From Thalia democratica (Eukaryota), in the NCBI GenBank assembly GCA_965202585.1, contig OZ241827.1, positions 51,150,001 through 51,214,000 of the forward strand: 64,000 bases of DNA, given 5' to 3'. A program made the position numbers. Shown here piece by piece: positions 33,001 to 64,000 of this stretch. The stretch's first letter is position 1; each line of letters opens with the position of its first letter.

Positions 33001-36000
33001 ATTCCCGCAAGCTTGAATCTCTAACTTTCTTAAAAATATTCAATTAACTTCGAGTATGAAAAAGAATTTGATTATTTGATCAGCTAAGACGTGTCAAGAA
33101 AAGGTTCCAGATCCTGAAAAAATACAAACTAAGCACTACGAAATTTTTATTGTTATTTATATTTTAGCATTATTTTCCAATGAAGTTACTTTTTACGTAT
33201 ATGTTTTTATTTCACCTTTTCCATTATTATTGTTTGTTTTTTATTGCATTTATCTAATTAATTCCAATTTTAAATATGTTTCTACTCAGTAAACAAACTG
33301 CTAACGGTAGCGATTTGAGCAGACGGCAGAACGATTACTGCGTGGTTGAGGAAGACGAAGAAACCACTTTTCGGGAGATCGACATGGAAAAACCCGCGGC
33401 TGAATTTGAGCGTTCGGCGGTTGTCTGTAATTAAAAAAAAGGGTTATTTCAAATGGTTAGGCGCCTAAAAAGGGTATACTGGTTACGTAGCTACAAAATT
33501 AAGCAGTTGACTTTGAATTAAACTTTATTCCTGGACATCTTACCATAAAGCGAGACTTGGATCGAACTTTGTTGAGTGCTGATTCGCTCATGTCGGCTCT
33601 TTCTTCCGCCTCTTCAAGATCGTGAGTCACTTTCCTGAACTTAGCCAAGTTTTGGTTGGCTTGTTCTTCCTAATATTTAAAAAAAGTGTAAGTAAAGTAT
33701 TAGGTATCAGACTTTTCAATTGTATTTAACTAACAGCATCCTCAGTCATCTTTTTGTACTGCTTGAGTTTCATTTGAAGTTTTTCAACAAGCTCTTGCAT
33801 TCTGGTCTGGTTCTTACGGTCCTCGTCAGCCTAAATCATAAGCTGTCTTTAAGATATGGTAAAGAAAGTAAGATATAAGTTTTTTTAAACATGTACCCAA
33901 TTAGTCCAACTAAACAAATAAAAAAAAAGATCAAGAAAACGTTGTAGAATATAAAACTGTTGTCTGTATGAAAAGCTCTTTAAATGATTACAAAATTGAG
34001 CTAAGTAACAAAGCCACTATCAGTAAGTTATAAAAATAACGACATTAAACACTATAAACTGCAAACCTGGAAGGTAAGTTCCTTCAAGCGACGGTCCATC
34101 TTTCTGTAGTTCTTGAGGGTTTCGGCGTGGCGACGCTGTTCACCATCCAACTCACCTTCAATGTCCTTCATGCGAGACTGCACTGCTGCAAGTGCCTTTC
34201 TGCCTCCCTTGAGCGCGTAAGCTTCGGCCTCCTCAAGCTTGATCGTGAGCTCGTGAATTTGCGCTTCCAATGTCTTCTTGACGCGCTCAACTGAGATGAG
34301 ATGTTGCTGTTCTTGGCGAAGCTCTTCGGCCATGCGTCCCGCCTGTATATTAAAAAAAAAAAATCACGTGTATGCGCAAATGTGTTAGGTTTTTAAAGCT
34401 TTTTAGAGTTTTAAAAAGAGTTGTTAAATAAAAAATTCCTATAAGGACAAAAGTCAAGAAATGTTTTTATTTTTGTGTAAAAGTAAAAAAATAAGTAGAA
34501 ATTCTTTAAAAAATACTTTAAAAAATTCAAAAAAATAAGTAAGATAAAATAGTGAAGAAAAATTAGTTAAAAAAAAACTTAATAATCAACCCACATCGGA
34601 AACAGCTTTCTTGGCGCGCTCGTCCGAAGCCTTGCACTCGGCCACTGCTTCGTCCAGTTCCGATCTCATCTGCTCGTTCTCCGTCTCCAGCTTCCTGCGA
34701 GCGCTCGAAAGCGCGGAGTTCTGAGCCGACAGGTTGTTGACGCGGTCGGTGACCTCGAGTAGCTCGGCTTCGGCCTGCTTGCGGGACCTTTCGTTGGACT
34801 CGAGAGCGTTTCTCGTCTCTTCGAGCTCGGTCATGACGATCGTAAGTTTCCTCTCCTGGATGCCGTACTGTTCGCGCATTTCTTCATGGGCTCTTTGGTC
34901 CTCGTCCATTTGGTCTTGCATGTCCTATTTACCAGAAACAAAGGGCTTAACATTTTTTTTTCATAAGCCTTCTGACTAGGCATTTTCTACAGACTCGTGT
35001 GTATAAAAAATTTGAAGTTAAAATGAAAAAAAGTTTTAAATATTTTTTAGTTTACTTTAATTTGAAGTTACCTTCAAGTTGCCCTGAAGCTTCTTGATGA
35101 CTTTAGTTTGTTCGACAATTTGTTTGTTGCTGTGGTCCAACTGCAGCTCCACGTCGTTTAGCTGAGACTCAAACTTCTTCTTTGCCCTGACTGCGTCCGC
35201 ACGTGCTTTGATTTCAATGTCCAAGCTAGCTTGCATCGACTCGATGGATCGCGCGTAGTTCTTTCTAAACAAAAATAAACAGGATAATTTCAAACATAAA
35301 TTCTAAGGAAAGTCAAAAAGTTTGCTTTAAAGTTTTTTATTCTTTATTACCTTGTCGACTCAAACTCTTCATCTTTTTCTTGGAGCTTGCGGTCGATGTC
35401 GGCCTTGACTTGAGTCAATTCAAGTTGCAAGCGGAGAACTCGGCTCTACAAGCATAATTTTTTATTAAACCAAGTTCTTTTTTAACAATGAATTTAACTT
35501 AACTAACTTCTTCAAGCTCAAGTGCACCCTCGGCTTCTTCAAGAGCAGCTCTCAACTCTTCGGTCTCAAGCTCTGCCTTCTTCTTGGCTTTACTCAGTTC
35601 ATGAAGAGATTTACCTCCGGTGGTCAATTGATCAGTAAGATCGCTGATTTCATCTTGAATTAATTTAGAAAAAATTAGTACAAACAATTGTTAACACATG
35701 TTATACTTTTAACAAGCTTTAACTTACCAGACAAATTCTTGTTTTCGCGTTTGACAATTTCAAGTTGCTCAATGCTCTCTTCGTATGAAGTGCGCAACTT
35801 GTAGACTTCGGTCTGGTAGTTGCGAGATTCGCGTTGTGACACATCCAATTCAGATTGAACCTCTTCAACACGTTGCTTCCAGGTGGCAAGTTCCTTGTCG
35901 AAGTTGCGTTGCTTTTTGTCCAAAGCGGTCACGGTTGCGTTTGCCTAAAATTATCAAATTGATATATGTTTAATCTCACAAACATTTTATTAAAAGAATT

Positions 36001-63000: not shown

Positions 63001-64000
63001 TAAGCTTGTGTTTTAAACTTAAAAATAACCTCGAAAATCTCGAAACCAGCGATGTCAAGTACACCGACGAAGTAGTTTCTTGGCAAGTTGGTTTCCAAAG
63101 TGACGTTCAAGCGCACGACGATCCAGTTGAACAAATTCTTGTAGGTTGCCTTTGCCAAAGCACCGGTTGCGTTGTAACACTGCTCCATGTTCTGACCCTT
63201 GTTGACGAATTCGTTTCCGACCTTCACACGTGGACGAGTGATGGACTTGCAAAGCTCGGGTGAGCTGACACCAAACAAGTAGGCGACTTTGTCAGCAACT
63301 GTATTTAGGATTTTGTAAGCGTTACGGCGTTTTGCAGTTCAATTAAGCTATGTAGTAGAACTCAAAATTTATAGTGATTCATTATTTTTTGTAAAACTTA
63401 GTTTTTGATTACTCATTTAATCTTTTTTCAAGTAAAATAAAATCAAACTTTGATTAAAAGCAAGCGCTATAAGTTTAGTTGTTTTCTTTTTTCCTTTGAA
63501 TTTTTATGAAGATACTTTGAACTCGAACATTATTAAAATTACTAGATGCTTTTTCTAATAAAGAAATATCTTGAAAAATTCAATGTAATACAAAAGCTAA
63601 CCATCAACAGAGTCCACATCGGCTTGCTCGTCACGAGGTTTTTGCTTGTAGGTCATTGAACCGAAGTTACAGACACCAGCAGTGATGCGGAAGGCACCCA
63701 TTTCGTCTTCTGGGTCGAATCCGAGGACATGGAAAGCTTCCTGTTTTGTTTTGTTTTTGTTGACACAACTCATAGAAATTTTCGTAATGCAATTTCATAG
63801 TTAGGTTTAAAAATTACGAAGTTCATAATTGCGTAATGATGTTAAAATAGAGCTTTAAAAAATACTTGCATTTTTTACACTAGTTTGAAGTTGAAAACGT
63901 AAAACATCTTTTTGCTTCAAAAAGTAATAGATTAAAAAAATATCTGAAAATTTCTGAAACATTTATATAGAAAATAGTAGTAAATTGAAACAAACGTTTA

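What the first reader, a model, noticed from the sequence alone, without database searches (positions are those of the whole stretch)
33335..63740. Tandem muscle myosin paralogs are a patchwork of near-identical and strongly diverged segments (segmental gene conversion)
Seen: some segments are almost base-identical, including synonymous sites (39311-39566 vs 61325-61580; 34067-34342 vs 56968-57243; 37919-38064 vs 59999-60144; 33544-33669 vs 56532-56657). One whole 65-bp intron is also shared (33670-33734 vs 56658-56722). Neighbouring exons differ heavily (38594-38821 vs 60479-60706; 39637-39773 vs 61645-61781; 37690-37780 vs its counterpart), and most introns are unalignable. Exon 37405-37548 differs from B at only a few bases although both flanking introns are missing from B. 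Inference: an old duplication under ongoing short-tract conversion, with certain segments protected from homogenisation by selection. Those protected segments map the isoform-defining regions.
Basis: partly seen in the sequence, partly recalled or inferred. Interest (0 to 1): 0.66.

Follow-up and report, generated by a model that had tools for sequence, protein, structure and literature searches.

The report
Patchwork gene conversion between tandem myosins
Two neighbouring muscle myosin genes of a tunicate-like animal are an old duplicate pair in which about half of the coding sequence has been copied between the copies in short patches, a known process seen here in a new lineage.

Summary
The window holds two class II muscle myosin heavy-chain genes in tandem on the minus strand: A (46056-33335, complete) and B (from beyond 64000 to 56204). 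Their closest named relatives are Ciona and Styela "myosin-16"; the window is not human. Over 4,857 aligned coding bases, a two-state model finds 14 low-divergence blocks (53 of 2,770 sites differ, dS about 0.10). They alternate with 15 high-divergence blocks (523 of 2,087 differ, silent sites saturated). Silent differences cluster beyond all 10,000 permutations. Thirteen of 20 shared-position introns are unalignable, and six A introns are absent from B. In high blocks B groups with B-like relatives; in low blocks A and B group together (Fisher p 3e-6). This is the signature of interlocus gene conversion on an old duplication. Half of the block borders (14 of 28) lie within 12 nt of an exon junction, so non-homologous introns seem to stop the tracts. 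One 65-nt intron was co-converted, so the template was genomic DNA. The low blocks look coeval, so "ongoing" is not shown. "Protected by selection" is untested. The phenomenon is known in vertebrate myosin genes and only suspected in ascidians. Verdict: new member of a known kind.

The parts
33335..46056 (-). Gene A: complete class II muscle myosin heavy chain with 34 coding exons in my model. ATG at 46056, first exon 46056-46020, next exon 45337-45144, stop at 33335.
   Evidence: Pfam Myosin_N, Myosin_head and Myosin_tail_1. Splice model with GT..AG introns and a consistent reading frame.
56204..64000 (-). Gene B: the same kind of gene, with its 5' part beyond the window end. 21 exons in the window correspond to A exons 7-33.
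   Evidence: Exon lengths match A exactly except for a one-codon indel in exon 12 and a 9-nt length difference (90 vs 99 nt) in the last exon.
33549..33830 (-). Low block across A exons 31 and 32 with the co-converted 65-nt intron 33670-33734. Counterpart in B: 56537-56818.
   Evidence: Exon 31 has 4 of 96 mismatches and exon 32 has 1 of 121. The intron is 60 of 65 identical; its interior scores z 24.7.
34067..34339 (-). Low block in A exon 30. Counterpart in B: 56968-57240. Identity runs 11 nt further into the downstream intron.
   Evidence: 1 mismatch in 273. An exact run of 188 nt spans 34243-34056. Flank map.
35508..35839 (-). Low block across the 3' part of A exon 25 and exon 26, with the partly similar intron 25|26. 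Counterpart in B: 57996-58328.
   Evidence: 2 of 112 and 5 of 146 mismatches. Intron: 57 of 72 aligned columns match, z 10.
35865..35920 (-). Short low block inside A exon 25. Counterpart in B: 58354-58409.
   Evidence: 0 of 56 mismatches.
36013..36677 (-). Low block across A exons 23 and 24, separated by an unalignable intron (267 nt in A, 114 nt in B). Counterpart in B: 58624-59135.
   Evidence: 5 of 265 and 5 of 133 mismatches. Intron z -2.0 and -1.4.
36958..37128 (-). Low block in the middle of A exon 22, with both borders inside the exon. Counterpart in B: 59451-59621.
   Evidence: 4 of 171 mismatches.
37406..37548 (-). Low block equal to A exon 21, bounded by two introns that B lacks. 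Counterpart in B: 59694-59836.
   Evidence: 2 of 143 mismatches. Introns 20|21 and 21|22 are absent from B.
37919..38350 (-). Low block across most of A exon 18 and exon 19. Counterpart in B: 59999-60384.
   Evidence: 4 of 171 and 3 of 146 mismatches.
38613..38684 (-). Low block inside A exon 17. Counterpart in B: 60498-60569.
   Evidence: 3 of 72 mismatches.
39311..39566 (-). Low block in A exon 16 (second weak IQ match and start of the rod). In coding order the block continues 17 nt into exon 17, across an intron (489 nt in A, 618 nt in B) that does not align end to end; its interior shares only a short local match (z 6.4). Counterpart in B: 61325-61580.
   Evidence: 3 of 256 mismatches. Longest exact run is 212 nt, 39553-39342. 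Intron semi-global z 0.5.
40260..40359 (-). Low block in the 5' part of A exon 14. Counterpart in B: 62001-62100.
   Evidence: 0 of 100 mismatches.
40456..40524 (-). Low block in A exon 13. Counterpart in B: 62134-62202.
   Evidence: 0 of 69 mismatches.
40793..40947 (-). Low block in A exon 12. Counterpart in B: 62318-62469.
   Evidence: 4 of 152 mismatches.
41476..41646 (-). Low block in A exon 10. Counterpart in B: 62776-62946.
   Evidence: 6 of 171 mismatches.
42302..42365 (-). Low block in the 3' part of A exon 7. Counterpart in B: 63602-63665.
   Evidence: 1 of 64 mismatches.
34595..35434 (-). Largest high-divergence block: A exons 27 (most of it), 28 and 29. In B this is part of the single exon 57930-57313.
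   Evidence: 120 of 610 sites differ. Exon 28 has 15 and exon 29 has 13 amino-acid changes. B groups here with P0001 and P0002 to the exclusion of A.
39637..40259 (-). High-divergence block: 3' part of A exon 14 and exon 15 (end of the motor domain and first IQ-like motif). Counterpart in B: 61645-62000.
   Evidence: 63 of 252 sites differ. Pfam Myosin_head positions 600-675 of 679. IQ hit E 0.027, below the curated cut-off.
33335..33424 (-). Last coding exon of A (tailpiece), strongly diverged from B's 56204-56302.
   Evidence: 10 of 29 aligned residues differ. Only these two tailpiece exons occur in the window.
41946..42117 (-). Intron 8|9, present in A and absent from B. The other five A-only introns are 40366-40428, 37549-37689, 37200-37404, 35265-35350 and 34925-35071.
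   Evidence: B exons 63298-63030, 62209-61886, 59927-59282 and 57930-57313 equal the summed lengths of the A exons they replace. Listed.

Best explanation
A and B are an old tandem duplicate pair of MYH16-like muscle myosin heavy-chain genes. Homologous recombination between the two genomic copies (interlocus gene conversion) has since overwritten about 57% of the compared coding sequence in many short patches of roughly 56-290 contiguous bases.

The tracts are confined to stretches that are still similar. The introns have diverged beyond alignment or are missing from B, and they act as stops, so half of the patch borders lie at exon edges. Where the intron is still homologous (31|32), it was copied along with its exons, so the template was DNA and not spliced RNA.

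The most recent patches all have about the same age (dS about 0.10). They are younger than the split from the lineage of the B-like record P0001.

Shown: the patchwork, its statistical reality, the topological discordance, the intron co-conversion and the border enrichment.
Inferred: the barrier role of introns, the episodic timing, and that B lost introns rather than A gaining them.
For: - Per-exon dS ranges from 0.034 to saturation; heterogeneity p 9e-48.
- Silent differences are clustered; 0 of 10,000 permutations reach the observed value.
- A two-state HMM (2.1% vs 25.2% mismatch) has BIC 3148, against 3545 for one state.
- Low blocks: 922 codons, 11 amino-acid changes, dS 0.10. High blocks: 688 codons, 126 changes, pS 0.72.
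- Four-taxon patterns with X = P0001 and outgroup P0003: low blocks AB|XO 9 vs BX|AO 1; high blocks 2 vs 26; Fisher p 3e-6. With P0121: 7 vs 0 and 6 vs 9, p 0.017.
- Single-exon trees place B with P0001, P0121 and P0002 to the exclusion of A.
- A-type fragments P0134 and P0135 are identical to A in the 3' high block of exon 22.
- Intron 31|32 is 60 of 65 identical, about what the low-block dS predicts for neutral sequence.
- Introns 23|24, 26|27 and 30|31 are unalignable although flanked by low blocks.
- 14 of 28 borders lie within 12 nt of a junction, against 13.4% expected, p 3.7e-6.
- Low/low junctions number 7 of 26, against 7.5 expected if exon ends behave independently (my count from the table).
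Against: - There are no reads, so an assembly artefact cannot be formally excluded.
- No nucleotide outgroup was available, so all tree evidence is at protein level. It rests on unnamed records. One of them, P0001, is itself composite (see Noticed in passing).
- P0002 gave no informative sites in low blocks (0 vs 1).
- Direction of transfer is unresolved. B is about 6% from P0001 in both block classes, which suggests mostly B-type sequence in the low blocks. But in the exon 22 low block, the window's B carries residues shared with the A-type fragments.
- The three-state HMM fits somewhat better in likelihood (-1542 vs -1553) though worse by BIC, so block calls are approximate.
- GC3 is lower in low blocks (0.53-0.54) than in high blocks (0.60-0.63), so there is no GC-biased conversion signal.
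Confidence: 0.82

Rival explanations
1. One reading: conversion would homogenise the whole gene, but selection for isoform-specific function removes converted alleles in certain segments. The diverged blocks would then mark the isoform-defining parts.
For: - High blocks hold 126 of the 137 amino-acid differences.
- They include the end of the motor domain with the first IQ-like motif, and the tailpiece.
- Paralog-specific residues of high blocks are conserved in related records: B-type in P0001, P0002 and P0121; A-type in P0134 and P0135.
- In the high blocks A is further than B from every relative compared there. Mismatches A/B: P0001 154/72, P0003 114/90, P0121 141/100 and Ciona P0011 192/175.
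Against: - dN/dS is about 0.05 in both classes, with no excess of replacement change (dS is saturated in the high blocks, so this is weak).
- B-to-P0001 distance is the same in low and high blocks, about 6%.
- Half of the borders sit at exon-intron junctions. A physical barrier predicts this; protein-level selection does not.
- Once a stretch is about 25% diverged, recombination between the copies is expected to fail without any selection (established knowledge of homology dependence, not tested here).
Confidence: 0.3
2. Spliced-RNA (cDNA) templated conversion: a reverse-transcribed message of one copy paired with the other gene. This would explain exon-bounded patches, untouched introns, equal age of the patches and the missing introns of B.
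For: - Borders are enriched at exon junctions.
- Low blocks look coeval.
- B lacks six introns precisely, including two adjacent pairs (20|21 + 21|22, and 27|28 + 28|29).
Against: - Intron 31|32 was co-converted, and identity runs 11 nt into the intron after exon 30.
- Where both copies are near-identical on both sides of an intron, both still keep their own, different introns. A cDNA tract across the junction would have deleted the intron.
- None of the six junctions where B lacks the intron is low on both sides (table).
- Low/low junctions are not in excess: 7 observed against 7.5 expected.
Confidence: 0.08
3. Recent duplication (age dS about 0.1), with the diverged blocks imported later from a third, distant paralog elsewhere in the genome.
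For: - Low blocks share one divergence level.
- A is further than B from all relatives in the high blocks.
Against: - Introns lying between two low blocks should then still be about 90% identical. Instead 23|24, 26|27 and 30|31 show no similarity and differ in length.
- Six intron presence/absence differences.
- 3' flanks are unalignable.
- A-type and B-type high-block sequences each have their own close relatives in other records.
Confidence: 0.04
4. Assembly artefact: the paralogs were partly collapsed or chimerically assembled.
For: None directly. The window carries no read evidence. The longest exact shared run is 212 nt, long enough to confuse a short-read assembler.
Against: - Low blocks still differ at 53 of 2,770 sites.
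- There are 28 switches at a scale of 24-610 coding nt, each block embedded in copy-specific introns.
- Both copies keep intact reading frames and GT..AG introns throughout.
Confidence: 0.04
5. No recombination: local differences in mutation rate or in constraint on silent sites (codon use, splicing signals) produce the pattern.
For: Highly expressed muscle genes often show codon bias (general knowledge, not tested here).
Against: - A roughly 25-fold step in dS with sharp borders.
- A co-identical intron.
- Opposite tree topologies in the two block classes.
Confidence: 0.02

Closest known systems
Gene conversion among vertebrate sarcomeric myosin heavy-chain (MYH) paralogs
   Same: Tandem, same-strand muscle myosin genes with segmental homogenisation of coding sequence. 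The vertebrate MYH preprint 10.1101/2025.10.28.684953 (passages read) reports homogenisation by gene conversion in the skeletal MYH array. Its reference list includes Moore et al. 1992 and McGuigan et al. 2004; I saw only those list entries and did not read those papers.
   Different: Here the genes are MYH16-like and from a tunicate-like genome. The patches are very short and intron-bounded, and the two copies differ in six introns.
Ascidian Myh paralogs (tunicate Myh survey, bioRxiv 10.64898/2025.12.09.693291)
   Same: Same animal group. [quoted passage not shown]
   Different: Its remark concerns the cardio-paraxial subfamily and gives no tract-level evidence. The window gives direct evidence, and for the MYH16-like class.
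Mosaic divergence of tandem paralogs by interlocus gene conversion (general)
   Same: A patchwork of near-identical and diverged segments in tandem duplicates. Examples seen only as search listings and abstract starts: HMA4 in Arabidopsis halleri (10.1101/2025.10.29.685298) and GOT1 in Tigriopus (PMC3728101, 'islands of divergence'). The Caenorhabditis review PMC3966223 (passages of section 4.2 read) states that fast-diverging introns may impede conversion and that short introns can be co-converted.
   Different: Nothing in kind. This is another instance, with an unusually clear enrichment of borders at exon junctions and coeval patches.
Reverse-transcriptase-mediated intron loss
   Same: B lacks six introns precisely, two pairs of them adjacent. 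B's remaining introns are short (median 74 nt against 144 nt in A, from the lengths).
   Different: Polarity (loss in B or gain in A) was not tested. The missing introns are spread along the gene and not concentrated at the 3' end. They are not tied to the converted blocks.

Membership tests
Interlocus (ectopic) gene conversion between paralogs | Silent-site divergence is spatially clustered beyond chance | tested here: met
   chi2 p 9e-48; 0 of 10,000 permutations reach the observed value; two-state HMM preferred by BIC.
Interlocus (ectopic) gene conversion between paralogs | Converted segments group the paralogs of one genome; unconverted segments group orthologs | tested here: met
   protein level. 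With P0001: 9 vs 1 in low blocks and 2 vs 26 in high blocks, p 3e-6. With P0121: p 0.017. P0002 was uninformative in low blocks. Single-exon trees.
Interlocus (ectopic) gene conversion between paralogs | Non-coding sequence inside a tract is homogenised too, so identity is not due to protein constraint | tested here: met
   Intron 31|32 is 60 of 65 identical. Identity runs 11 nt beyond exon 30. This was seen for one whole intron only.
Interlocus (ectopic) gene conversion between paralogs | Non-reciprocal transfer with an identifiable donor and recipient | tested here: inconclusive
   Searches give hints in both directions. No nucleotide outgroup was available.
Interlocus (ectopic) gene conversion between paralogs | Both loci are really present as assembled | not testable with these tools
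   No reads.
Class II muscle myosin heavy chain | Myosin_N, motor domain, IQ neck and coiled-coil tail in that order | tested here: met
   The IQ hits are below Pfam's cut-off (E 0.027 and 0.59). For B only the motor end, neck and tail lie in the window.
MYH16-type (jaw/body-wall) myosin | Forms a clade with Ciona/Styela 'myosin-16' and with vertebrate MYH16, apart from other sarcomeric MYH | tested here: inconclusive
   The tunicate clade has support 99/99 and 100/98. Union with vertebrate MYH16 has 83/75 and is not recovered. No tunicate cardio-paraxial Myh was in the trees. In one search nearly all named non-tunicate hits are labelled MYH16 or myosin-16; a few carry other names such as myosin-7-like.
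MYH16-type (jaw/body-wall) myosin | Expression in body-wall or siphon muscle | not testable with these tools
   Stated for ascidians in 10.64898/2025.12.09.693291. There are no expression data for this genome.
Reverse-transcriptase-mediated intron loss (gene B) | Exact removal of introns with the reading frame kept | tested here: met
   the fused B exons equal the summed A exon lengths (269, 324, 646 and 618 nt).
Reverse-transcriptase-mediated intron loss (gene B) | Introns were ancestral (loss, not gain in A) | not tested
   No eukaryotic genome collection was open, and the preprint's supplementary intron figure is closed. The preprint says only that ascidian intron positions are largely conserved with vertebrates.
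Reverse-transcriptase-mediated intron loss (gene B) | Adjacent introns lost together; bias to the 3' end | tested here: inconclusive
   Two adjacent pairs among six. Positions are spread from exon 8|9 to 28|29, with no 3' bias.
Selection-maintained islands of divergence | Evidence of divergent selection in the islands (raised dN/dS, or converted alleles selected against) | tested here: not met
   dN/dS is about 0.05 in both classes. dS is saturated in the high blocks, so the test is weak. There are no population data.

The most novel reading that the evidence does not exclude
The latest homogenisation was not a drizzle of independent short conversions. It was one gene-wide episode: a single misaligned pairing of the two genomic copies (or a few within a short time). 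Every stretch that was still similar was repaired in patches, and the non-homologous introns acted as insulators. If so, intron turnover (loss and shrinkage in B, growth in A) is what cut the pair into exon-scale modules that can escape concerted evolution one by one.
Probability: 0.25. Interest if true: 0.6.

Novelty: new member of a known kind. Interest (0 to 1): 0.4.

Why it matters
Gene conversion blurs gene trees. In tunicates, myosin paralogs that cluster by species have been read as recent, species-specific duplications. This locus shows directly that an old pair can look young over half of its length.

The locus also gives a clean natural example of how intron divergence and intron loss limit conversion tracts. 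It yields a map of which parts of a muscle myosin have stayed paralog-specific: the end of the motor with the first IQ, parts of the rod, and the tailpiece. That map is a list of candidates for isoform function, not a demonstration of it.

Tried and rejected
- A search for an A-type full-length ortholog (proteins of 241-2000 aa) found none closer than 86%. Only two short A-type fragments covering exon 22 turned up, so the A side of the ortholog test rests on one exon.
- The exon 22 tree did not unite the tunicate clade with vertebrate MYH16.
- GC3 as a donor marker failed: A and B have nearly the same GC3 within each block class.
- I tested by hand count whether A-only introns sit preferentially in high blocks. 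Eight of 12 flanking exon ends are high, against 16 of 40 at shared introns (from the table). The difference is not convincing, so I dropped it.
- I looked for an alternative A-like tailpiece exon downstream of B to explain P0001's hybrid C-terminus. There is none; only two tailpiece exons occur in the window.
- Rfam found nothing in the window.
- I considered and rejected, on the evidence listed under the rivals: synonymous-site constraint, recent duplication with a third donor, and alleles misplaced in tandem. The last is excluded by intron structure and saturated dS.
All searches and trees used single exons, and pooled statistics summed per-exon counts.
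Full report
**What is there.** The window is 64 kb, 30% G+C, and has no N runs. Stop-to-stop frames and Pfam show two class II myosin heavy-chain genes, both on the minus strand. Gene A runs from an ATG at 46056 to a stop at 33335. Gene B enters from beyond the window end and stops at 56204. 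Nothing else in the window matches a myosin. The closest named relatives are Ciona intestinalis, C. savignyi and Styela clava 'myosin-16', 73-75% identical over one long exon. Several unnamed records are closer. The contig is therefore tunicate-like and not human.

**How the work was restricted.** Pooled statistics are sums of per-exon counts.

**Gene models.** I anchored stop-free frames on the related protein P0003 and chose GT..AG pairs that keep the frame. This gave 34 coding exons for A. For B it gave 21 exons that correspond to A exons 7-33. Exon lengths agree exactly except for a one-codon indel in exon 12 and a longer tailpiece in B. Six introns of A are absent from B, so four B exons are precise fusions of two or three A exons. 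From the lengths, B's 20 introns have a median of 74 nt and A's 26 have a median of 144 nt.

**The observation.**
- Per-exon Nei-Gojobori dS runs from 0.034 (exon 30) to saturation (exons 8, 15, 20 and 33), and the heterogeneity is overwhelming (chi2 297, df 26).
- Among 1,437 codons with the same amino acid, 320 carry a silent difference. Their clustering exceeds all 10,000 permutations.
- On the smaller set of 548 four-fold sites, the sum-of-squares statistic again exceeds all permutations. The longest run, however, is reached by 98 of 10,000.
- A two-state hidden Markov model on the 4,857 aligned coding bases (576 mismatches) gives emission rates of 2.1% and 25.2%. It finds 14 low blocks (2,770 sites, 53 mismatches) and 15 high blocks (2,087 sites, 523 mismatches).
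- Low blocks have dS 0.10 and 11 amino-acid differences in 922 codons. High blocks have pS 0.72 and 126 differences in 688 codons. dN/dS is about 0.05 in both.

**Why this is conversion on an old duplication.**
- Thirteen of the 20 introns at shared positions align no better than shuffled sequence.
- Three introns that lie between two low blocks (23|24, 26|27 and 30|31) have no similarity at all in their interiors and differ in length.
- The 300 nt after the stop codons do not align.
- A young duplication cannot give this pattern. An old one with exon-limited copying can.
- Single-exon trees place B with the B-like records P0001, P0121 and P0002 to the exclusion of A, with P0003 outside both.
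- I counted informative four-taxon patterns exon by exon. The low blocks support A+B (9 vs 1 with P0001; 7 vs 0 with P0121). The high blocks support B+relative (26 vs 2; 9 vs 6). The Fisher tests give p 3e-6 and 0.017. P0002 covers too little of the low blocks to say anything.
- Two short A-type fragments, P0134 and P0135, are identical to A over the 3' high block of exon 22. So A-specific sequence also has relatives elsewhere.
- It has limits. It is at protein level and uses unnamed records. P0001 is visibly composite.

**How it seems to work.**
- Borders between blocks are not tied to exons as units. Fourteen of 28 lie inside exons (13, 14, 17, 18, 22, 25 and others).
- The other 14 lie within 12 nt of an exon junction, where 13.4% are expected (p 3.7e-6). 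Seven lie within 3 nt.
- Exon 21 is the clearest case: a 143-nt low block ends at the two A introns that B lacks.
- States on the two sides of an intron behave independently. Seven low/low junctions are seen against 7.5 expected (my count from the table).
- Where the intron is still homologous and of equal length (31|32, 65 nt), it is 60 of 65 identical, about what the low-block dS predicts. Identity also runs 11 nt past exon 30.
- Together these results point to recombination between the genomic copies. Tracts run until similarity ends, which is usually at an intron.
- The idea that diverged introns impede conversion, and that short ones can be co-converted, is already in the literature (PMC3966223, section 4.2 passages).
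- A spliced-RNA template is unlikely as the general mechanism. The intron co-conversion speaks against it. Both copies also keep their own introns between low blocks. And none of the six junctions where B lacks the intron is low on both sides.

**Timing.**
- The 14 low blocks are compatible with one divergence level (chi2 12.8, df 13, p 0.46).
- Simulated exponential ages, as expected from a steady process of independent tracts, give so little spread in only 0.6% of runs. For the 19 genomically contiguous pieces of at least 40 nt, the figure is 1.1%.
- If each block averaged three tracts, the figure would be 6%. So the inference is suggestive and not firm.
- The high blocks are heterogeneous (p 4e-5). 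A three-state model separates a 15% class from a 32% class, which suggests an older round of homogenisation.
- I therefore read the history as recurrent episodes. 'Ongoing' is not shown.

**Selection.**
- The high blocks do include the end of the motor domain with the first IQ-like motif (exons 14-15; the IQ hit is below Pfam's cut-off), long stretches of the rod, and the tailpiece.
- A is further than B from every relative in the high blocks. The labels 'converter' and 'loop 2' for parts of these blocks would be recalled, not tested.
- Against a selective reading: dN/dS is equal in both classes, B-to-P0001 distance is equal in both classes, and borders are enriched at junctions.

**Known or new.** Gene conversion among tandem muscle myosin genes is established in vertebrates (passages of 10.1101/2025.10.28.684953, and the older papers it lists, which I did not read). 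A 2025 preprint on tunicate Myh genes says only that it cannot be excluded in ascidians. My searches for myosin conversion in tunicates found no tract-level description. This is a new member of a known kind. Three features may be of wider use: intron-bounded tracts, coeval patches, and an intron-poor, compact copy B.

**Left open.**
- Reads to exclude misassembly.
- Nucleotide outgroups for direction.
- Polarity of the six intron differences. The preprint's supplementary intron figure was closed.
- Expression of A and B.
- The 5' third of B, which lies outside the window.

Noticed in passing
window 12876-14501 (-): An uninterrupted 542-codon frame with Chromo, Pre-SET and SET domains, that is, a SUV39-type histone methyltransferase. 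It appears to have no introns, in a genome whose myosin genes have 20-33 introns.
   Followed up: partly
window 21190-21708 (+) and 22371-22670 (+): Frames with weak RING-type zinc-finger and UBA-like hits, both just below Pfam's cut-offs. Probably exons of a ubiquitin-ligase-like gene.
   Followed up: partly
protein P0001 (unnamed record), compared with window exons 8-9, 25 and 33: P0001 is composite. Its first ~450 residues are unlike A, B or P0003 (22-24 mismatches in the 39 residues of exon 8). A stretch in exon 25 reads like a frame shift. Its rod is B-type, but its tailpiece is A-type (1 mismatch to A, 13 to B). This could be a chimeric assembly or a different mosaic in that lineage; I could not tell which.
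   Followed up: partly
window 40366-40428 (-): A's intron 13|14 is 63 nt, in frame and free of stops. A retained intron would therefore insert 21 residues into the motor domain without breaking the frame. B lacks this intron.
   Followed up: no
B 56204-63740 compared with A 33335-42440: B is compact: 20 introns with a median of 74 nt, many of 64-75 nt. A has 26 introns with a median of 144 nt over the same coding span. More related records are B-like than A-like: P0001, P0002 and P0121 against only the exon 22 fragments P0134 and P0135. B may be the more highly expressed copy; this is an inference only.
   Followed up: partly
low and high blocks of A and B: Third-position G+C is lower in the converted blocks (0.53 in A, 0.54 in B) than in the unconverted ones (0.60, 0.63). 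This is the opposite of what GC-biased conversion would give.
   Followed up: no
window 32014-32158 and 3460-3844: A 15-nt unit is repeated about 9.7 times just downstream of gene A, inside a Ser/Arg-rich frame at 31928-32209. There is also a 195-nt unit in two copies (88% match).
   Followed up: no
window 39310-38822 and 61324-60707: The long introns 16|17 of A and B (489 and 618 nt) do not align end to end, but their interiors share one short local match (score 42, z 6.4, beating 200 of 200 shuffles). I did not inspect the matching stretch.
   Followed up: no
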